Assembly (NCBI GenBank): GCA_005772895.1
Contig: SXIH01000038.1
Coordinates: 42,941-106,940 of the forward strand
Reading direction: 5' to 3'
Source: Bacteroidota bacterium
GTDB lineage: Bacteria; Bacteroidota; Bacteroidia; 2-12-FULL-35-15
DNA length: 64,000 bases
Shown: in pieces, positions 2,841 through 63,811 of the stretch
How positions within the stretch are numbered: position 1 is the stretch's first letter
Layout: each line of letters starts with the position of its first letter
Translations under genes and position numbers: made by a program
The notes under the pieces: model-generated
Seen by the model: the letters and a program-made list of their open reading frames with translations, nothing else
Database searches by the model: none
Told to the model about the DNA's origin: nothing

Positions 2841-3620
2841 TTAAACGTCCACCATATTTGTAAGATTTACAAAGTCGGCAACCGATAATTCTTCTGCTCT
2901 TTGAGTAAGATATTTATGGTCTAAAAATTCGGGTTTTAATTTGAATGCTTTGATAGAATTCCGTAATGTTTTTCTGCGCTGATTAAATCCGGCTTTCACA
3001 ACTTGTTTGAACAATTTTTCATTGCAATCCAATTGTTGAACTGTGTTGCGTGTTAAACGAATAACTGCAGACTGAACTTTTGGAGGAGGATTAAATACAT
3101 TTGCATCAACTGGAAATAAATATTCGATATCATAAAATGCCTGAAGTAAAACGCTGGTAATTCCGTAAGTTTTATTTCTGGGTTTGGAAGCGATGCGTTC
3201 TGCTACTTCTTTTTGAAACATCCCCACAACTTCCGGAACTTGATTTTTATGGTCTAGGACTTTAAATAAAATTTCTGTGGAGATATTGTAAGGAAAATTT
3301 CCAATCACAGCAAAAGATTCCTTGTTGAATAAACTATCGAAATCTAATTTTAAAAAATCACCTTCAATAATTTTGTTTTCAAGACTTGGAAAGTTTTGTT
3401 TTAAGTATGCGATGGATTCTCTGTCGATATCAATGATGTAAGTTTCGTATGCCGTTTCCTGAATAAGATATTTTGTAAGCACGCCCATTCCCGGACCAAC
3501 TTCAATTACCTTTTTATATTGAGAAGAATGTTTTAAGCTTTTTACAATATTAAGAGCGATGGTTTCATCTTTCAAAAAATGTTGCCCTAAATGTTTCTTT
3601 GCTCTAACTTGATCCGACAT
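2841..3620 (-). CDS. rsmA: 16S rRNA (adenine1518-N6/adenine1519-N6)-dimethyltransferase RsmA/KsgA
   Basis: 259 aa with the LGQHFL motif and a SAM-binding VIEVGPGMGVLT motif. Confidence 0.85.
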   Translation of the reverse strand: MSDQVRAKKHLGQHFLKDETIALNIVKSLKHSSQYKKVIEVGPGMGVLTKYLIQETAYETYIIDIDRESIAYLKQNFPSLENKIIEGDFLKLDFDSLFNKESFAVIGNFPYNISTEILFKVLDHKNQVPEVVGMFQKEVAERIASKPRNKTYGITSVLLQAFYDIEYLFPVDANVFNPPPKVQSAVIRLTRNTVQQLDCNEKLFKQVVKAGFNQRRKTLRNSIKAFKLKPEFLDHKYLTQRAEELSVADFVNLTNMVDV

Positions 3621-57524: not shown

Positions 57525-59111
57525 CTAAATCTTAATCTCATCCTCATTCTTATTCATAAAATGATATTCCATAAAAGTATAAGAAGACACAGCGCGTACT
57601 TTAAATTTGCGTCCGTATTTTTTCCCCCATTTACGTTTTAGTGAACTGAAGAATCCTTTTGTGATGTATGCTTCCAAATAAGGATGAACACAAAGTGTTA
57701 CTCCTTTTTCATTTTGCTCTTTTAAAATATAACGTAAGTTGTTTTCTATCTGATCGATTAAAATAATGCTCGCTTGAATTTCACCGCTACCGTTACAAGT
57801 CGGACATTTTTCGACAGTAACAATATTCATTTCTGGACGAACACGTTGACGGGTGATTTGGATAAGTCCGAATTTACTTGGAGGAAGAATGTTGTGCTTG
57901 GCACGATCCTTCGCCATTTCATCACGAATTTTTTCGTAAAGTAATTTGCGGTTTTCGGCTGAATGTAAATCAATAAAATCTACTACAATAATTCCACCCA
58001 TATCTCGCAAGCGTAACTGACGGGCAACTTCAACGGCTGCTTCTAAGTTTACTTCCAGCGCATTGTTCTCTTGCGAATTATCAGACTTTGCGCGGTTACC
58101 ACTGTTTACATCTATTACGTGTAATGCCTCGGTATGTTCAACAATTAAGTAACCTCCACTTTTCATTGTCACTGTTTTTCCAAACAGTCCTTTGATTTGT
58201 CTGTCAACTCCAAAATTATCGAAGATGGGAACGTTGCCTTTGTAAAGTTTTAAAATATTTTCTTTATCCGGAGCAATAGTATGTAAGTATGATTTTGTTT
58301 CTTCATACAAAGCCTGGTCATTCACATGAATACTGTTGAAACTTGAATTCAACAAATCGCGTAAAATAGCAGATGTACGATCCAATTCTCCCAATACTTT
58401 TTGTGGCGGCTGAGCAGTTTTTAATGCTTCATAACATAAATCCCACTTTTTTACTAAGTCGTTTAAATCTGCATCTAAGTCGGCAACACTTTTACCTTCT
58501 GCTACCGTCCGGATAATAACACCAAAGTTTTTCGGTTTGATACTCGCGATGAGTTTTTTCAAACGCGATTTCTCATCATTGGTTTTTATTTTCTGAGAAA
58601 CAGATATTTTATCTGAAAAAGGAATGAGAACTAAATAACGTCCTGCTAAAGAGATTTCGGTAGTAATTCTAGGACCTTTTGTAGAAATAGGTTCCTTGGC
58701 AATTTGAATCAGAATTTGCTGATTGGCATTTATAACATTACCTATTTTGCCATCTTTTGGGATATCATTCTCAAACTTAAAATACATTAAGTTGGAAGTG
58801 GTTTGTTTTCCCGTTTGTACCAGTTTGGTATATTTTCCGAATGATGCGGCCTGAGGCCCCAGATCCAGGTAATGCAAAAATGCATCTTTTTCGTATCCAA
58901 CATCCACAAAGGCTGCATTTAAACCGGGCATCACTTTTTTTACGCGTCCCAGATAAATGTCGCCAACTGAAAAGTTATTGTTGCTTTTTTCTCGATTAAG
59001 TTCTACTAATCGTTTGTCATTTAATAGTGCAATAACAACTTCGGAGGGTGTTGAATCAATGATTAATTCGCTGTTCACTCTAAAGTTTTTTAATGAATAC
59101 AATATCCACAA
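57525..59111 (-). CDS. rng: Ribonuclease G (RNase E/G family)
   Basis: 528 aa with an S1 domain (GDIYLGRVKKVMPGLNAAFVDVG) and a DNase-I-like/catalytic RNase E/G core. The true start is probably GTG 59078 (VNSELIIDSTPSEVVIAL) rather than ATG 59111. Confidence 0.8.
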   Translation of the reverse strand: MWILYSLKNFRVNSELIIDSTPSEVVIALLNDKRLVELNREKSNNNFSVGDIYLGRVKKVMPGLNAAFVDVGYEKDAFLHYLDLGPQAASFGKYTKLVQTGKQTTSNLMYFKFENDIPKDGKIGNVINANQQILIQIAKEPISTKGPRITTEISLAGRYLVLIPFSDKISVSQKIKTNDEKSRLKKLIASIKPKNFGVIIRTVAEGKSVADLDADLNDLVKKWDLCYEALKTAQPPQKVLGELDRTSAILRDLLNSSFNSIHVNDQALYEETKSYLHTIAPDKENILKLYKGNVPIFDNFGVDRQIKGLFGKTVTMKSGGYLIVEHTEALHVIDVNSGNRAKSDNSQENNALEVNLEAAVEVARQLRLRDMGGIIVVDFIDLHSAENRKLLYEKIRDEMAKDRAKHNILPPSKFGLIQITRQRVRPEMNIVTVEKCPTCNGSGEIQASIILIDQIENNLRYILKEQNEKGVTLCVHPYLEAYITKGFFSSLKRKWGKKYGRKFKVRAVSSYTFMEYHFMNKNEDEIKI

Positions 59112-59216
59112 CTCTCCTAATAAAAGAGTTTGTAGATCATTTTAATATGTTGATTGTGCTTAATTTCTCCCGGTTTCAGAAGGAGAAAAAGAAAACAAAC
59201 AGGCGTGTGCTAATAA

Positions 59217-59246
59217 ACAGAATAGATTTTTGAATTTCTATTCTGT
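59217..59246. other. Perfect 10-bp-stem hairpin (acagaataga-tttttgaatt-tctattctgt) in the rng upstream region
   Basis: Lies between the small basic ORF and rng. Candidate terminator or attenuator, or an autoregulatory leader structure. Confidence 0.4.
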
Positions 59247-59288
59247 AAAATGACGCTGTTAATCACATAATTAAAAATAATCCCCCAA

Positions 59289-59320
59289 TCCCGATAGCTA
59301 TCGGGAGGAATTATTTTTTC
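59289..59320. other. Hairpin tcccgatag/ctatcggga followed by ggaattatttttt
   Basis: Perfect 9-bp palindrome immediately 3' of the small basic ORF, with a T-tract on the plus strand. Confidence 0.4.
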
Positions 59321-59400
59321 TTATGTCTGTTTTTTCTCAAACGCTTTTTACGTTTGTGAGTAGCCATTTTATGTCTTTTTCTTTTTTTACCGCTTGGCAT
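59311..59400 (-). CDS. Small highly basic protein (29 aa), bS22-like (AURKAIP1/COX24-type ribosomal protein candidate)
   Basis: Encodes MPSGKKRKRHKMATHKRKKRLRKNRHKKK. It is below the 60-aa cutoff of the ORF track. Its Lys/Arg composition and the KKRKR.KM..HKRKK.LRK.R pattern resemble bS22. Confidence 0.4.
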   Translation of the reverse strand: MPSGKKRKRHKMATHKRKKRLRKNRHKKK

Positions 59401-59430
59401 GACTTAAATGTTTAATGTTTATAAATCCGT

Positions 59431-60279
59431 TTATTGTGTGTGACCATGAGTTTCCTCAGTGGTTAATTTATTTATATAATCTTGTACTTCTGCTTTGATT
59501 GTTACATCATCTACTAATGCAACATATTTTTTTAAACTCTCAATTGCTTTTGCTTTATCACCTTTTTGTTGATAGGCATCTGCTAAATGCAAATACGCTT
59601 CAATAAAATCGGGTTGAATCTTCAACACTTTTTCAAATCGGGCAATTGCTTTATCCCACTGTCCTGATCGTTCCGAGAAAAATGCAAAGTTCAATTGAAG
59701 ATTTACATTGTTCGAATCGGTTTTTTCAATTTCTCTCAACATTCCAATTCCTTTCATTGGGTCTGGACTGCCTTCTACATAACAAGATGCTAAATTAATT
59801 TTTGCATCTAAGTTTTCCGGATTCAATTCTAACACTTGGTTGAAACAATCCATTGCTTTATTAAAAAGTAATGGACGTTCAGCTTCTCCAACAAAACGGG
59901 TAGCTGCATAATAACGATTTGCTGCTTCCATCCAATTGCTTTCTGTTGGTGATGCTATTGAAGCTTGCTCCATATAATAAGCCGCAACCGAAGGATTTCT
60001 TAAACTGTCCCACATGTTAATCATGTTTTCGAAAGCTGTTTTTTTATCAGTTGAAGATTTTATTGCCTCATCTAATTTTTGAACTGCTTTTTTATCTTCT
60101 GCACTTAAACCATCCACTGCAGTTTGCACCATTTTGGTAAATGCAAGCATATTGGGGTTTGCGTGTTCGGAAGAGACAGCTTCTTCTTTTGGAAGAAGTT
60201 TTGTATTTGCTAATAATAAAAGAACGATAAGTACTAATGCTCCTGAAATGACTGCTATTTGAGTTTTATTCAGTTTCAT
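59431..60279 (-). CDS. TPR repeat protein with an N-terminal membrane anchor
   Basis: 282 aa with an N-terminal TM helix (IAVISGALVLIVLLLLA) followed by several TPR-like repeats. Confidence 0.55.
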   Translation of the reverse strand: MKLNKTQIAVISGALVLIVLLLLANTKLLPKEEAVSSEHANPNMLAFTKMVQTAVDGLSAEDKKAVQKLDEAIKSSTDKKTAFENMINMWDSLRNPSVAAYYMEQASIASPTESNWMEAANRYYAATRFVGEAERPLLFNKAMDCFNQVLELNPENLDAKINLASCYVEGSPDPMKGIGMLREIEKTDSNNVNLQLNFAFFSERSGQWDKAIARFEKVLKIQPDFIEAYLHLADAYQQKGDKAKAIESLKKYVALVDDVTIKAEVQDYINKLTTEETHGHTQ

Positions 60280-60369: not shown

Positions 60370-60669
60370 TTATGCTGGTATTTCCTTTTTAACGTTTTTC
60401 TTTACTTTCTCAGCAAAAGTTTTAGCCGGTTTAAATGCCGGAATGTAATGTGCCGGAATAATAATAGTTGTGTTTTTGGAAATGTTTCTTCCTGTTTTTT
60501 CAGCTCGTCTTTTTACGATGAAACTTCCAAATCCTCTCAAGTAAACGTTTTCTCCACTTACCATAGAGTTTCTTACTGATTTCATGAATGCTTCAACACT
60601 TGCCTGAACAGCTACTTTTTCAATTCCTGTTTTTTCTGCAATGTCGTTAATGATGTCTGCCTTTGTCAT
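60370..60669 (-). CDS. HU-family DNA-binding protein
   Basis: 99 aa with MTKADIINDIAEKTGI ... GFGSF...R.A.KTGRN and the beta-arm RNP motif. Confidence 0.85.
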   Translation of the reverse strand: MTKADIINDIAEKTGIEKVAVQASVEAFMKSVRNSMVSGENVYLRGFGSFIVKRRAEKTGRNISKNTTIIIPAHYIPAFKPAKTFAEKVKKNVKKEIPA

Positions 60670-60810
60670 ACTTCTATAAACTATTTATAATCAAACAATT
60701 AATACAATAATAATTTTTCGGGAGGCAAAGATAGTATTTTAATTTTCAAACAAAAATTTTAATCGTAATTTCGACCTACTTTTAATAAAATCGGTCAAAA
60801 AAGCCCATAA

Positions 60811-61869
60811 ATGAAGCATTTTTCCCCTAAAATAATTACCTGGTATCATCAAAATAAGAGGGATTTACCTTGGCGGAATACAAAAGACGCTTATTTAATA
60901 TGGCTTTCGGAGATTATTTTACAGCAAACCCGCGTAGATCAAGGCATGGCTTACTATTTAAAGTTTGCCGAGCATTTTCCTACGGTAAAAGACCTTGCTA
61001 AGGCAGATAATGATAAAGTAATGAAACTTTGGCAAGGATTGGGCTATTATTCCCGAGCTCGGAATTTGCATACTGCCGCCAAAACAATACACACTATATA
61101 TAAAGGCAAATTTCCCGATTCCCATGAAGAGATTCTTTTGCTTAAAGGAGTGGGAGAGTATACCGCTGCTGCAATAGCTTCTTTTGCATTTAATAAACCT
61201 CATGCCGTTGTGGATGGAAATGTATACCGTGTTCTTTCAAGAGTCTTTGGAATAGAAACTCCGATTGATAGTTCTTTGGGTAAAAAAGAATTTTACAAAC
61301 TAGCCAACGAATTAATCGATAAAAAAAATCCGGGTTTGCACAATCAGGCCGTCATGGAATTCGGAGCGCTGCAATGTAAACCTGCTAATCCCGATTGTTC
61401 TGTTTGTCAGTTAAACAATATGTGCTACGCTTTCGCGAAGAAAGTGGTGACCGATTTGCCTGTCAAGGAAAAGAAAACAAAAGTGAGGAACCGTTTCTTT
61501 AATTATATGGTTTTCCGATATAAAGGAACAATTGCTATTCATAAAAGAACAGCAAAAGATATTTGGATTAACCTTCACGATTTCCCATTGATTGAAACAG
61601 TCAAAGAATTATCTGAAGAGCAATTATTAAAATCGACTGAGTGGAAAAAGGTGTTGGGTAAAACAAAATATTCGATAAGATCTATTTCCAATTCTTATAA
61701 ACACATCCTGAGTCATCAAAAAATTTATGCAAGGTTTATAGAGATTGATTGTAAAGAACCATTGAAGAATTTTCTTCCAAAAAATATGCTTATTATTAAA
61801 GAGAAAGATATTCATAAGTATGCAGTTCCAAGGTTGGTGGATTTGTATTTAGAAAAGGTGAGTTGTTAA
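60811..61869 (+). CDS. mutY: A/G-specific adenine DNA glycosylase
   Basis: 352 aa with an HhH-GPD domain (LPGVGEYTAAAIASFAF), a 4Fe-4S cluster loop (C.P.NP.C..C...C) and a C-terminal NUDIX-like domain. Confidence 0.85.
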   Translation: MKHFSPKIITWYHQNKRDLPWRNTKDAYLIWLSEIILQQTRVDQGMAYYLKFAEHFPTVKDLAKADNDKVMKLWQGLGYYSRARNLHTAAKTIHTIYKGKFPDSHEEILLLKGVGEYTAAAIASFAFNKPHAVVDGNVYRVLSRVFGIETPIDSSLGKKEFYKLANELIDKKNPGLHNQAVMEFGALQCKPANPDCSVCQLNNMCYAFAKKVVTDLPVKEKKTKVRNRFFNYMVFRYKGTIAIHKRTAKDIWINLHDFPLIETVKELSEEQLLKSTEWKKVLGKTKYSIRSISNSYKHILSHQKIYARFIEIDCKEPLKNFLPKNMLIIKEKDIHKYAVPRLVDLYLEKVSC

Positions 61870-61924
61870 GAAGAAGCTATTCCCACTTAAAAAGGGGGCT
61901 AGGGGGATTATTTCATGAAACGCT

Positions 61925-61954
61925 TGATTTCACCCTCTTCATTCCTTATATTTG
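61925..61954 (+). promoter_or_regulatory. Putative sigma-A promoter for ssb (-33 TTG at 61925, -7 TATATTTG at 61947..61954)
   Basis: TTG, a 19-bp spacer, then TAnnTTTG, located 22 nt upstream of the ssb ATG. Confidence 0.35.
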
Positions 61955-61975
61955 TTATGAAATAAAATTAAGATT

Positions 61976-62380
61976 ATGGCAGGCGTTAATAAAGTAATAT
62001 TGGTTGGTAATTTGGGGAAAGACCCAGAAGTCCGTCATTTAGAAGGAGGAGCTGTGGTGGCAAATTTTCCTATCGCAACTACGGAAGTGTATAAAGATAA
62101 AACAGGAACACGTCAGGAGCAAACCGAATGGCATAACATTGTTGTGTGGAGGGGTTTGGCTGAAGTAGCTGAAAAATATTTGAAAAAAGGAATGACCATT
62201 TATATAGAAGGAAAATTACGAACCCGTTCCTGGGATGATAAAGAAGGACATAAGCGTTATACTACAGAAGTGGTGGGTGATACATTTACAATACTGAGTA
62301 AAAAAGAAAGTCAATCTTCCGGTAATAATGAAGAAAGTGGTATTTCAGGCCCCAAAACAGGAGATGATTTACCTTTTTAA
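61976..62380 (+). CDS. ssb: Single-stranded DNA-binding protein
   Basis: 134 aa with an OB fold ([20 protein letters not shown]...TEWHNIVVW) and an acidic DDLPF tail. Confidence 0.9.
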
Positions 62381-62521
62381 TTGATTAATTTGCAAAGCAC
62401 TATCTTTACATCCTTATAAGTTTAACTAATATCCAAAATTTTGGCCGTCACGAGTACCAGTCTGCTTTTTAATTCTTCGCTTCTCAGCATTGTTGTAAAC
62501 CCTTTTTCCTTTAGCATTTTG

Positions 62522-63811
62522 ATGGCAATCATAACAATGTTTGTGCTGTTATTGATTGTTGCTATGGTTTCAGCTGCTGAATCTGCCTTTTTTTCTCTTA
62601 GTCCAAACGATTTGGATGAATTAAAAACATCCGATTCTAAATCCGACCAAAAAATCCTTCAACTAATTGGTGCACCAAAACGCTTGTTGGGAACATTGCT
62701 GATTAGTGTAAATTTTATAAGCATTGCAATTGTTATTATTAACTCGACATTTATTTTTGGAACAGAAGGGTGGTTTAATTTCTCGGGAGCTGCTACTTTG
62801 GGGTTTATTATTCAAGTGGTGGTGGTTACTTTTTTAATATTATTGATAGGAGAAGTAACACCTAAAATATACGCTACTCAAAATCCTTTGAAAGCTTCGC
62901 GCAGGCTAATTTATTTTGTGCTTGTGCTACAAAAATTATTTTATCCTGTGAGTTCGTTTTTAATTATGATTACTTCTTTGCTCGACAAAGTAATCAAACC
63001 AAAATCTCATAGTATTTCGGTTGATGAATTATCGCATGCTCTAGAGCTTACTTCTGATGAGGATATTCCGGAAGAAGACCATAAAATTTTAAAAGGAATT
63101 GTAAAATTTGGGAATACTGATGTAAAACAAATTATGCAGTCGCGCACCCATGTTACTGCTTTTGAACATAAAATAGGTTTTACAAAATTGTTGACCGATA
63201 TTACAGCCTACGGTTTTTCCCGAGTGCCAATTTATAAAGAAACACTGGATAATATTGTAGGTGTGCTTTACACAAAAGATTTGCTTCAATATACCAATGA
63301 GTCTGATAGTTTTAATTGGCAGACAATTGTCCGTGCTCCGTTTTTTGTACCTGAAAATAAAAAGATAGATGATTTGCTCAGAGAGTTTCAGTATAAAAAA
63401 ATTCACTTAGCAGTAGTGGTTGATGAGTATGGTGGGACTTCCGGTATTGTTACTTTGGAAGATGTAATAGAAGAAATTGTTGGTGAAATAAATGATGAGT
63501 TTGATGACGATGATCTGGTTTATTCGAAATTAGATAATAATAATTTTGTGTTTGAAGGAAAAGCAGCCTTAAATGATGTGGCAAGAATTCTGGAAATAGA
63601 TAGAGCAAATTTTGAAGATGTAAAAGGAGAAGCTGATAGTTTAGCAGGATTGATTATTGAAATAGAAGGCAGAATCCCGACTAAAAATGAAAAAATTGTT
63701 TTCACGCCAGGCGGACAAACGGATAGAAATTTAGTCTTTACAATTGAATCGGCAGACAATAGAAAAATTAAAAGAGTTAAAATTACAATTGAAAGAGCGA
63801 ATGAAGAATAA
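62522..63811 (+). CDS. gldE: Gliding motility-associated protein GldE (CorC/HlyC-family: DUF21 + tandem CBS + transporter-associated domain)
   Basis: An N-terminal 4-TM DUF21 region, two CBS domains and a C-terminal CorC_HlyC domain. The track start 62441 adds a 27-aa extension, so ATG 62522 (MAIITMFVLLL) is preferred. Confidence 0.65.
   Translation: MAIITMFVLLLIVAMVSAAESAFFSLSPNDLDELKTSDSKSDQKILQLIGAPKRLLGTLLISVNFISIAIVIINSTFIFGTEGWFNFSGAATLGFIIQVVVVTFLILLIGEVTPKIYATQNPLKASRRLIYFVLVLQKLFYPVSSFLIMITSLLDKVIKPKSHSISVDELSHALELTSDEDIPEEDHKILKGIVKFGNTDVKQIMQSRTHVTAFEHKIGFTKLLTDITAYGFSRVPIYKETLDNIVGVLYTKDLLQYTNESDSFNWQTIVRAPFFVPENKKIDDLLREFQYKKIHLAVVVDEYGGTSGIVTLEDVIEEIVGEINDEFDDDDLVYSKLDNNNFVFEGKAALNDVARILEIDRANFEDVKGEADSLAGLIIEIEGRIPTKNEKIVFTPGGQTDRNLVFTIESADNRKIKRVKITIERANEE

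What the first reader, a model, noticed from the sequence alone, without database searches (positions are those of the whole stretch)
59112..59430. Unannotated 29-aa lysine/arginine-rich ORF (bS22-like) plus two perfect hairpins upstream of RNase G
The minus strand at 59311..59400 encodes MPSGKKRKRHKMATHKRKKRLRKNRHKKK with a proper stop. It is invisible to the 60-aa ORF cutoff. Its composition and pattern resemble ribosomal protein bS22 (AURKAIP1/COX24-domain). That protein is known from Mycobacterium and has, as I recall, been seen in a Flavobacterium ribosome structure. The gene is followed by a 9-bp palindrome (59289..59306) and a 10-bp-stem hairpin (59217..59246) within the ~230-nt region upstream of rng. 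RNase E/G leaders are often autoregulatory.
Basis: partly seen in the sequence, partly recalled or inferred. Interest (0 to 1): 0.5.

Follow-up and report, generated by a model that had tools for sequence, protein, structure and literature searches.

The report
Ribosomal protein bS22 gene with terminator
The 29-codon reading frame is a real, strongly conserved gene for the tiny ribosomal protein bS22, already known from Bacteroidota ribosome structures, and the two hairpins after it most likely stop transcription before the RNase G gene, so the finding is correct but ordinary.

Summary
The minus strand at 59311..59400 encodes MPSGKKRKRHKMATHKRKKRLRKNRHKKK. It matches bS22 chains in solved ribosomes: 26/29 with Flavobacterium johnsoniae (7JIL) and 27/29 with Porphyromonas gingivalis (9I5V). 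Borrelia bS22 (8FMW) matches at E 1e-5.

The same peptide lies directly upstream of rng, on the same strand, in all 79 informative Bacteroidota loci. Substitutions fall almost entirely at third codon positions, so it is a protein-coding gene.

Both hairpins are real and beyond chance (z about -5 to -6). A strong hairpin with a T-rich tail follows bS22 in most related loci, while its sequence changes.

In Bacteroides thetaiotaomicron, published dRNA-seq tables tie the bS22 region to the HU transcription start. They list a terminator about 30 nt after bS22. They give rng its own start site 31 nt upstream of its start codon.

The best reading is an HU-(TPR)-bS22 operon closed by terminators, followed by a separately and weakly expressed rng. 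The autoregulatory rng leader idea is not supported for these two hairpins.

Side observations: rng almost always starts with GTG or TTG, and a second conserved hairpin sits 13-29 nt upstream of its start.

bS22 in Bacteroidota is already known. Interest is low.

The parts
59311..59400 (-). Gene for ribosomal protein bS22 (29 aa, MPSGKKRKRHKMATHKRKKRLRKNRHKKK).
   Evidence: ORF listed. PDB matches: 26/29 to 7JIL chain 5, 27/29 to 9I5V, and 8FMW bS22 at E 1e-5. Found upstream of rng in all 79 informative loci. Third-codon-position entropy is 0.94, against 0.15 and 0.02 for positions 1 and 2.
59265..59326 (-). Hairpin H1, terminator-like. GC core palindrome at 59289..59306, extended by pairing of the A-rich ORF end with a downstream U-rich run (UUAUUUUU).
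   Evidence: -26.4 kcal/mol, z -5.9. The core is also flagged as terminator-like by the simple scan, which scored it on the + strand because it is palindromic. A small hairpin straddling or following the stop codon recurs in 40 of 78 sequences.
59217..59246 (-). Hairpin H2. Perfect 10-bp stem with a 10-nt loop, followed by UUAUUAG. Probably a second or back-up terminator of the bS22 transcript.
   Evidence: -10.4 kcal/mol, z -5.05. The closest relative L001 has a homologous 14-bp hairpin with changed stem bases. Hairpins of this positional class occur in 65 of 78 sequences and have T-rich tails.
59164..59188 (-). Weak hairpin H3.
   Evidence: -8.1 kcal/mol, z -1.4, so not above chance on its own. 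A small hairpin of different sequence sits at the same relative place in L001-L003.
59104..59137 (-). Hairpin H4. It ends 25 nt upstream of the rng GTG and has no T-tail. It is either an rng leader element or an inverted repeat overlapping the rng promoter.
   Evidence: -13.9 kcal/mol, z -4.1. A hairpin ending 10-33 nt (observed mostly 13-29) before the rng start occurs in 52 of 78 sequences, against 13.6 in shuffles.
57525..59078 (-). rng, an RNase E/G family endoribonuclease with a GTG start.
   Evidence: Pfam PF10150, E 3.9e-98. The start is placed by the conserved N-terminus in 77 related loci.
59431..60279 (-). TPR-repeat protein gene. Its stop codon lies 30 nt upstream of the bS22 ATG. 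Probably co-transcribed.
   Evidence: A TPR gene sits between HU and bS22 in 44 loci; elsewhere HU directly precedes bS22.
60370..60669 (-). HU (bacterial DNA-binding protein) gene, proposed first gene of the operon.
   Evidence: PF00216, E 9e-28. HU lies upstream on the same strand in 74 loci.
60726..60733 (-). TATCTTTG, a match to the Bacteroidota -7 promoter motif TAnnTTTG. Proposed promoter of the HU-TPR-bS22 unit.
   Evidence: Sequence. The motif lies mostly 45-60 nt upstream of HU in 71 of 72 loci, where about 0.1 per locus is expected. The B. thetaiotaomicron HU primary start site follows TATATTTG.

Best explanation
59311..59400 (-) is the gene for ribosomal protein bS22. bS22 is a roughly 30-residue basic helix that sits between 16S rRNA helices h44 and h45 and touches the 50S subunit.

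bS22 is the last gene of an HU-TPR-bS22 transcription unit, driven by a canonical Bacteroidota promoter upstream of HU.

The two hairpins right after it are RNA stem-loops that end and stabilise this abundant transcript. H1 spans 59265..59326 and H2 spans 59217..59246. Both work as intrinsic terminators.

This insulates the next gene, rng, the RNase E/G family nuclease. rng is made at a much lower level from a weak non-canonical promoter and a GTG start codon.

What is shown and what is inferred:
- Shown here: the coding status and family of the ORF, the synteny, and the conservation of hairpins by position but not by sequence.
- Taken from the literature: the ribosomal location of bS22 and the transcript map in B. 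thetaiotaomicron.
- Inferred: that the same transcript organisation holds in this organism.
For: Identity:
- phmmer against PDB gives 7JIL chain 5 (F. johnsoniae bS22) at E 5.5e-10 with 26/29 identical.
- 9I5V (P. gingivalis 70S) matches at E 1.6e-10 with 27/29 identical.
- 8FMW (Borrelia bS22) matches at E 1e-5.
- The papers place this protein between h44 and h45.

Coding status:
- 74 distinct DNA versions encode an almost invariant peptide.
- 26 of 28 third codon positions vary, against 2 of 28 second positions.
- Pairwise codon differences are 30262 synonymous against 942 non-synonymous.

Synteny:
- bS22 is directly upstream of rng on the same strand in 78 complete loci plus 1 cut by a contig end, out of 79 informative loci. 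rng identity across them is 62-88%.
- The order HU -> [TPR] -> bS22 -> rng is conserved.

Promoter:
- TAnnTTTG occurs upstream of HU in 71 of 72 loci.
- It occurs in only 3 of 78 bS22-rng spacers and in 9 of 78 regions upstream of bS22.

Hairpins:
- The strongest spacer hairpin averages -19.5 kcal/mol, against -6.8 in shuffles.
- For post-stop hairpins, 49% have at least 5 T in the next 8 nt, against 18% background (p 9e-9).
- The sense strand folds better than the antisense strand by a mean of 4.3 kcal/mol, in 53 loci against 25.

Experimental parallel in B. thetaiotaomicron:
- The bS22 region is called a 3'UTR-derived sORF linked to the HU start site at 1848006.
- terminator_00234 lies at 1848483-1848521, about 31 nt after the bS22 stop. 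Its last column reads TRUE, which per the paper's methods appears to denote an RNA-seq coverage drop.
- The rng primary start site is at 1848580, with a 31-nt leader.
Against: - No transcript data exist for this organism.
- H2 is AT-rich (3 GC pairs of 10), and its tail has only 4 T in 8.
- The U-run of H1 follows the GC core only after a 4-nt bulge and three more pairs.
- The simple scan called H1 only on the + strand.
- No recognisable promoter was found between H2 and rng, so read-through from the bS22 unit could contribute to rng expression.
- In B. thetaiotaomicron both genes are assigned to one ANNOgesic 'transcript864', which implies some read-through.
- The Pfam and NCBIfam scans of the peptide returned nothing, presumably because of composition filters.
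- Many of the loci are related, so the p-values overstate independence.
Confidence: 0.85

Rival explanations
1. The hairpins are parts of a long structured 5' leader of rng. rng would be transcribed by read-through from bS22. The leader would mediate feedback control by RNase G itself, as the rne 5' UTR does for RNase E in E. coli.
For: - The whole 232-nt spacer is unusually structured (z -5.4).
- No canonical promoter motif lies in the spacer, here or in 75 of 78 relatives.
- HU to rng is one 'transcript' in the B. thetaiotaomicron table.
- A non-terminator hairpin is conserved just upstream of the rng start.
- rng uses weak start codons.
Against: - In B. thetaiotaomicron a primary rng start site lies 31 nt before the start codon, downstream of the terminator, in all three growth conditions.
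- Post-bS22 hairpins carry T-rich tails. Their distance to the bS22 stop is tighter than their distance to rng.
- No Rfam match, including the RNase E 5' UTR family.
Confidence: 0.12
2. The inverted repeats act as DNA, not RNA. They would be palindromic operator sites for a dimeric regulator of rng or of the HU operon.
For: - H1 and H2 are perfect palindromic repeats.
- In B. thetaiotaomicron an inverted repeat, ATGAACA-N15-TGTTCAT, lies at -37..-8 of the rng start site. Window hairpin H4 occupies a similar place relative to the rng start.
Against: - Stem sequences, stem lengths and loop lengths differ freely between lineages, while only the ability to pair is kept.
- The sense strand folds better than the antisense strand, and G-U pairs are commoner on the sense strand: 10.0% against 7.9% of pairs. 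That points to selection on the RNA.
Confidence: 0.04
3. The 29-codon ORF is a chance reading frame, or part of a non-coding RNA. A sub-threshold Rfam hit to the Streptococcus sRNA SpF39 spans 59212..59332.
For: - The ORF is very short and of low complexity.
- Pfam and NCBIfam gave no hit.
- Rfam SpF39 scored 40.8 bits at E 0.0009.
Against: - The codon-position pattern of substitutions is that of a protein.
- Near-identical peptides are modelled in three solved ribosomes.
- The Rfam hit is below the gathering score of 60. It covers only the two terminator-like hairpins and the last codons.
Confidence: 0.01

Closest known systems
bS22 of Flavobacterium johnsoniae (Fjoh_1533; PDB 7JIL chain 5; Jha et al., NAR 2021, PMC7797042) and of Porphyromonas gingivalis (PDB 9I5V/9I5X; PMC12123416)
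   Same: Same length class and 26-27 of 29 residues identical, in the same phylum. The published descriptions also report a highly conserved peptide across Bacteroidetes.
   Different: Only three or two conservative substitutions. The papers read here do not mention the gene's position next to rng or its terminator.
bS22 of Borrelia burgdorferi (bb0822, PDB 8FMW) and of Mycobacterium smegmatis; eukaryotic analogues mS38 (AURKAIP1/COX24) and eL41
   Same: Short basic helix in the same rRNA pocket, according to the papers. Borrelia bS22 matches by sequence at E 1e-5, with 20/28 identical.
   Different: Neither mycobacterial bS22, mS38 nor eL41 was retrieved by phmmer or by a profile at E up to 10. 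The link to them therefore rests on the published structural superpositions, not on anything tested here.
Intrinsic (Rho-independent) terminator after the HU-bS22 unit of Bacteroides thetaiotaomicron (terminator_00234, Ryan et al. 2020, PMC7366714)
   Same: Same position: a stem-loop tens of nt after the bS22 stop and upstream of rng. The same gene order HU-bS22-rng.
   Different: The window has a TPR gene between HU and bS22, two successive hairpins instead of one, and a longer spacer (232 nt against about 158 nt). No transcript data exist for it.
E. coli rne 5' UTR autoregulatory element (Rfam RNase E 5' UTR family)
   Same: A structured region upstream of an RNase E/G family gene.
   Different: No Rfam match. 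The two flagged hairpins lie at the 3' end of the upstream gene. In B. thetaiotaomicron the rng leader is only 31 nt.

Membership tests
Ribosomal protein bS22 | Very small (about 28-33 aa), highly basic polypeptide. | tested here: met
   29 aa with 11 K, 6 R and 3 H.
Ribosomal protein bS22 | Significant sequence similarity to a chain modelled in the bS22 site of a solved ribosome. | tested here: met
   7JIL chain 5 at E 5.5e-10 (26/29), 9I5V at E 1.6e-10 (27/29), and 8FMW chain V at E 1e-5. Chain identities are confirmed in the papers.
Ribosomal protein bS22 | Maintained as a protein-coding gene, with purifying selection on the amino-acid sequence. | tested here: met
   Entropy at codon positions 1, 2 and 3 is 0.15, 0.02 and 0.94. 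Pairwise codon differences are 30262 synonymous against 942 non-synonymous across 78 sequences.
Ribosomal protein bS22 | Bound between h44 and h45 of 16S rRNA in the 70S ribosome. | not testable with these tools
   Known for the F. johnsoniae and P. gingivalis orthologues from cryo-EM. Not testable for this organism.
Ribosomal protein bS22 | Hit to a curated family model (Pfam COX24_C/AURKAIP1-type or an NCBIfam bS22 model). | tested here: inconclusive
   No hit at E up to 10 in Pfam or NCBIfam. HMMER's composition filters probably remove such a K/R-rich 29-mer. The PDB depositors' name for 9I5V is 'AURKAIP1/COX24 domain-containing protein'.
Intrinsic (Rho-independent) terminator | Stable stem-loop directly downstream of the last gene of a transcription unit. 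| tested here: met
   H1 is -26.4 kcal/mol and overlaps the stop codon. H2 is -10.4 kcal/mol, 64-93 nt after it. The same class is present in 65 of 78 sequences.
Intrinsic (Rho-independent) terminator | U-rich tract immediately after the stem. | tested here: inconclusive
   In the window, the H1 core is followed by UUGGGGGAUUAUUUUU, and H2 by UUAUUAGC (4 T of 8). Across loci the tails are clearly T-enriched: 49% against 18% have at least 5 T of 8 (p 9e-9).
Intrinsic (Rho-independent) terminator | Transcript 3' ends or a coverage drop at the site. | not testable with these tools
   Only an orthologous case is available: B. thetaiotaomicron terminator_00234, marked TRUE in the published table.
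RNase E-type autoregulatory 5' leader (E. coli rne 5' UTR) | The structured element lies inside the nuclease gene's own 5' UTR. | tested here: inconclusive
   No start-site data for this organism. In B. thetaiotaomicron the rng start site is 31 nt before the start codon and downstream of the post-bS22 terminator. H1/H2 equivalents are therefore outside the leader there.
RNase E-type autoregulatory 5' leader (E. coli rne 5' UTR) | Match to the Rfam covariance model of the element. | tested here: not met
   No such match at E up to 10 in the window region. Nothing at gathering score in 20 related loci.

The most novel reading that the evidence does not exclude
Several features recur phylum-wide:
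- the fixed adjacency of bS22 and rng;
- the near-universal GTG/TTG start of rng;
- the conserved non-terminator hairpin ending 13-29 nt before that start (window 59104..59137).

Together they could form an undescribed control module for the RNase E/G family nuclease of Bacteroidota. One version is feedback by RNase G on its own leader or promoter-proximal hairpin. Another is partial read-through that ties RNase G synthesis to HU and ribosomal-protein transcription.
Probability: 0.15. Interest if true: 0.5.

Novelty: already known. Interest (0 to 1): 0.2.

Why it matters
The practical value is for annotation. This 90-nt gene encodes a real ribosomal protein, but automated gene calling routinely misses it. 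The exact peptide is absent from a collection of about 15 billion proteins. In the B. thetaiotaomicron transcriptome tables it appears only as a mis-framed sORF in the 'HU 3' UTR'. Pipelines should rescue it by tblastn.

The biology of bS22 in Bacteroidota is already published. The only modestly new points are these:
- The gene always sits between HU (or a TPR gene) and rng.
- It has no canonical promoter motif of its own, and hairpins that look like terminators follow it.
- rng downstream carries signs of deliberately low or regulated expression, namely a non-AUG start and a conserved upstream hairpin.

Tried and rejected
- Pfam and NCBIfam scans of the peptide gave no hit. I treat this as uninformative.
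- The exact-sequence cluster look-up did not find the peptide.
- A profile of Bacteroidota and Borrelia bS22 against PDB retrieved only its own members. It did not retrieve mycobacterial bS22, mS38 or eL41.
- Rfam gave only sub-threshold hits in the window, the best being SpF39 at 40.8 bits against a gathering score of 60. It found nothing in 20 related loci except a tRNA. I rejected the sRNA reading.
- RNAalifold on a MAFFT alignment of the pre-rng region gave no consensus structure, because the spacers are not alignable by sequence. I used per-sequence folding with shuffle controls instead.
- A search for the Bacteroidota -7 motif TAnnTTTG in the bS22-rng spacer and upstream of bS22 showed no enrichment. 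The rng promoter could not be located in the window. The sigma-70 scan was at chance level.
- A first sense-versus-antisense hairpin comparison was biased by selecting hairpins on the sense fold. I replaced it with a symmetric whole-spacer comparison.
- A repeat-family or mobile-palindrome explanation was rejected, because both hairpin sequences are unique in the window.

Full report
**Observation**

The minus strand at 59311..59400 carries an ATG-started, TAA-terminated ORF of 29 codons.

Both inverted repeats are at the stated coordinates:
- a perfect 9+9 palindrome at 59289..59306;
- perfect 10-nt arms at 59217-59226 and 59237-59246, separated by 10 nt.

The palindrome is the core of a longer hairpin at 59265..59326. 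In it, the A-rich end of the ORF, stop codon included, pairs with a downstream U-rich run.

Folded alone, the hairpins give the following values:

| Hairpin | Window coordinates | Energy (kcal/mol) | z-score | Shuffles as good |
|---|---|---|---|---|
| H1 (extended) | 59265..59326 | -26.4 | -5.9 | 0 of 200 |
| H2 | 59217..59246 | -10.4 | -5.05 | 0 of 200 |
| H3 | 59164..59188 | -8.1 | -1.4 | 21 of 200 |
| H4 | 59104..59137 | -13.9 | -4.1 | 0 of 200 |

The whole spacer folds with z -5.4. H1 and H2 are unique in the window.

The downstream gene is an RNase E/G family protein (PF10150, E 3.9e-98). Its conserved N-terminus places the real start at GTG 59078, not at the mechanical TTG 59111. That gives a 232-nt spacer.

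**What the ORF is**

phmmer against all PDB chains returned three sequences, all of them bS22 chains of solved bacterial ribosomes:

| PDB chain | Organism | E-value | Identical residues |
|---|---|---|---|
| 9I5V chain 10 | Porphyromonas gingivalis 70S (organism confirmed) | 1.6e-10 | 27/29 |
| 7JIL chain 5 | Flavobacterium johnsoniae 70S | 5.5e-10 | 26/29 |
| 8FMW chain V | Borrelia burgdorferi | 1e-5 | 20/28 |

The F. johnsoniae paper describes how unassigned density between h44 and h45 was built de novo and matched to Fjoh_1533. [quoted passage not shown] The authors named it bS22 because it superimposes on M. smegmatis bS22.

The later papers report the following:
- The same placement in other ribosomes.
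- Contacts of the C-terminal lysines with the 50S subunit.
- Loss of bS22 from isolated 30S subunits.
- The analogy to mS38 (AURKAIP1/COX24) and eL41.

Pfam and NCBIfam scans gave nothing. I treat that as a filter artefact for a 59% K+R 29-mer, not as evidence against membership.

**Conservation**

Using the RNase G protein as an anchor, I fetched 80 loci from different Bacteroidota species, with rng 62-88% identical.
- The peptide is encoded immediately upstream of rng, on the same strand, in 77 loci by pattern search.
- L035 carries it with one K-to-R change.
- L036 carries it cut by the contig end.
- L004 has no upstream DNA.

That makes 79 of 79 informative loci.

Among 78 sequences (77 loci plus the window) there are 74 distinct DNA versions of the first 28 codons. 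The exact window peptide occurs in 52 of them.

Variation by codon position:

| Codon position | Mean entropy | Variable sites |
|---|---|---|
| 1 | 0.15 | 8 of 28 |
| 2 | 0.02 | 2 of 28 |
| 3 | 0.94 | 26 of 28 |

Pairwise codon differences are 30262 synonymous against 942 non-synonymous. This is the signature of a translated gene under very strong purifying selection.

The exact peptide is nevertheless absent from a collection of about 15 billion predicted proteins. The 'invisible to gene callers' point is therefore real.

**Context and transcription unit**

The gene order is gldE <- ssb <- mutY, then divergently HU -> [TPR] -> bS22 -> rng. It is conserved across the loci: HU is found in 74, and a TPR gene lies between HU and bS22 in 44.

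The Bacteroidota -7 promoter motif TAnnTTTG is distributed as follows:
- Upstream of HU: 71 of 72 loci, mostly 45-60 nt before the start codon. About 0.1 per locus is expected by chance.
- Within 250 nt upstream of bS22: 9 of 78.
- In the bS22-rng spacer: 3 of 78.

In the window the motif is TATCTTTG at 60726..60733 (-). Only 30 nt separate the TPR stop from the bS22 ATG. The HU-TPR spacer has no strong structure (z -1.95).

The supplementary tables of the B. thetaiotaomicron dRNA-seq study (PMC7366714) give an experimental parallel.
- HU (BT_1499) has a primary start site at 1848006.
- 'sORF_00107' at 1848355-1848426 is listed as 3'UTR-derived and linked to that start site. Its sequence contains ATGCCAAGCGGAAAAAAG..., which translates to MPSGKKKKRHKMSTHKRKKRL. 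This is the bS22 gene called in the wrong frame. No BT locus tag lies between BT_1499 and BT_1500.
- terminator_00234 (TransTermHP) lies at 1848483-1848521, about 31 nt after the bS22 stop. Its last column reads TRUE. The paper's methods relate terminator predictions to a decrease in RNA-seq coverage.
- rng (BT_1500) has its own primary start site at 1848580, 31 nt before its start codon, in all three growth phases.

**The hairpins**

Across the 78 sequences the spacer is 53-306 nt long, with a median of 152. It cannot be aligned beyond close relatives, but it is consistently structured.
- The best hairpin averages -19.5 kcal/mol, against -6.8 in shuffles.
- In 51 of 78 sequences it beats all 30 shuffles.

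Two positional classes emerge.

Class 1 is the post-stop hairpins.
- They occur in 65 of 78 sequences, mostly starting 14-50 nt after the bS22 stop, with a mean energy of -20.2 kcal/mol.
- Their tails are T-rich: 49% have at least 5 T in 8, against 18% background (p 9e-9).
- A smaller hairpin often precedes them, pairing the AAGAAAAAATAA end of the ORF with a downstream U-run.
- Window H1 and H2 belong to this class.
- L001, the closest relative, has a homologous H2 with changed but still complementary stem bases.

Class 2 is the pre-rng hairpins.
- They occur in 52 of 78 sequences, against 13.6 in shuffles. With a -8 kcal/mol cut-off the figures are 36 against 5.5.
- They end 13-29 nt before the rng start.
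- They show no T enrichment (15% against 18%).
- Window H4 belongs to this class.

The sense strand of the spacer folds better than the antisense strand: a mean difference of 4.3 kcal/mol, in 53 loci against 25. It also has more G-U pairs. This favours RNA-level selection over DNA palindromes.

The loci are phylogenetically related, so these statistics overstate independence. The stems do differ in sequence between lineages.

No Rfam family matches, including the RNase E 5' UTR element.

**Mechanism**

The best-supported model has four parts.
- A strong canonical promoter drives HU, the TPR gene and bS22 as one abundant transcript.
- H1 and H2 terminate and stabilise that transcript.
- rng follows as a separately, weakly expressed gene. 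It has no canonical -7 motif and a GTG start.
- GTG or TTG is used in 71 of 78 sequences.

The step-down makes sense, because HU and a ribosomal protein are needed in far larger amounts than an endonuclease. That last point is inference from general knowledge.

What remains unexplained is H4 and its class. In B. thetaiotaomicron an inverted repeat lies at -37..-8 of the rng start site. These elements may therefore overlap the rng promoter, or act only in read-through transcripts. I could not locate the rng promoter in the window.

**Comparison with known systems and novelty**

bS22 in Bacteroidota has been known since the 2020/2021 F. johnsoniae structure, and this gene is a near-identical orthologue. 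The kind is already known.

No paper in the searchable library contains both 'bS22' and 'RNase G'. The F. johnsoniae paper does not mention rng or the neighbours of Fjoh_1533. The following may therefore be small unreported observations, though none changes the picture of what the flagged feature is:
- the invariant bS22-rng adjacency;
- operon membership with HU;
- the non-AUG start of rng;
- the pre-rng hairpin.

**Verdict**

- The bS22 interpretation is supported.
- The leader interpretation of the two hairpins is not supported.
- Interest is 0.2.
- The most novel reading not excluded is a regulatory module around the rng start. I give it a probability of about 0.15.

Noticed in passing
window 59076..59078 (-), and loci L001-L080 near position 3001: rng starts with GTG (40) or TTG (31), and with ATG in only 7 of 78 Bacteroidota sequences. 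In Sphingobacteriales an in-frame TAG two codons upstream leaves TTG as the start. This points to conserved weak translation initiation for the RNase E/G family nuclease.
   Followed up: partly
window 59104..59137 (-); related loci, 13-29 nt upstream of the rng start: A second hairpin class without a T-tail ends at a nearly fixed distance before the rng start codon. It occurs in 52 of 78 sequences against 13.6 in shuffles, and stem sequences differ between lineages. It may overlap the rng promoter: B. thetaiotaomicron has an inverted repeat at -37..-8 of the mapped rng start site.
   Followed up: partly
window 60726..60733 (-); upstream of HU in the related loci: The canonical Bacteroidota -7 promoter motif TAnnTTTG (TATCTTTG in the window) lies mostly 45-60 nt upstream of the HU gene in 71 of 72 loci. 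It is missing before bS22 and before rng.
   Followed up: yes
L044, L052, L060, L061, L064, L069, L073, L075, L077 (post-bS22 hairpins, about 20-100 nt after the bS22 stop): In Sphingobacteriales the terminator-like hairpin has conserved arms AAACCUCC...GGAGGUUU. This is a Shine-Dalgarno-like GGAGGU paired to an anti-SD-like ACCUCC, in a phylum where SD sequences are rare and used for regulation. Pedobacter relatives keep AAACCUC/GAGGUUU but change the inner stem with compensation.
   Followed up: no
B. thetaiotaomicron NC_004663.1 1848355..1848452 (from the supplement of PMC7366714): The published sORF_00107 ('3'UTR-derived', linked to the HU start site) is called in the wrong frame over the bS22 gene. 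The ATG frame reads MPSGKKKKRHKMSTHKRKKRL. No locus tag exists between BT_1499 (HU) and BT_1500 (RNase G) in those tables.
   Followed up: yes
window 60811..63811 (+) and 60370..60669 (-): The divergent block mutY-ssb-gldE next to HU-TPR-bS22-rng is conserved across Flavobacteriales, Sphingobacteriales and Bacteroidales loci. The TPR gene is present in only about half of them.
   Followed up: partly
L005 2832..2906: A 74-nt hairpin (-47.5 kcal/mol), built from repeated GGTTGTCAG-like units, directly follows bS22 in an uncultured Chryseobacterium-labelled MAG. It is far stronger than a terminator needs to be.
   Followed up: no
window 59212..59332 (-): A sub-threshold Rfam hit to Streptococcus sRNA SpF39 (40.8 bits, gathering score 60, E 0.0009) covers the two hairpins. 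I judge it a resemblance between terminator-like stem-loops, not homology.
   Followed up: partly
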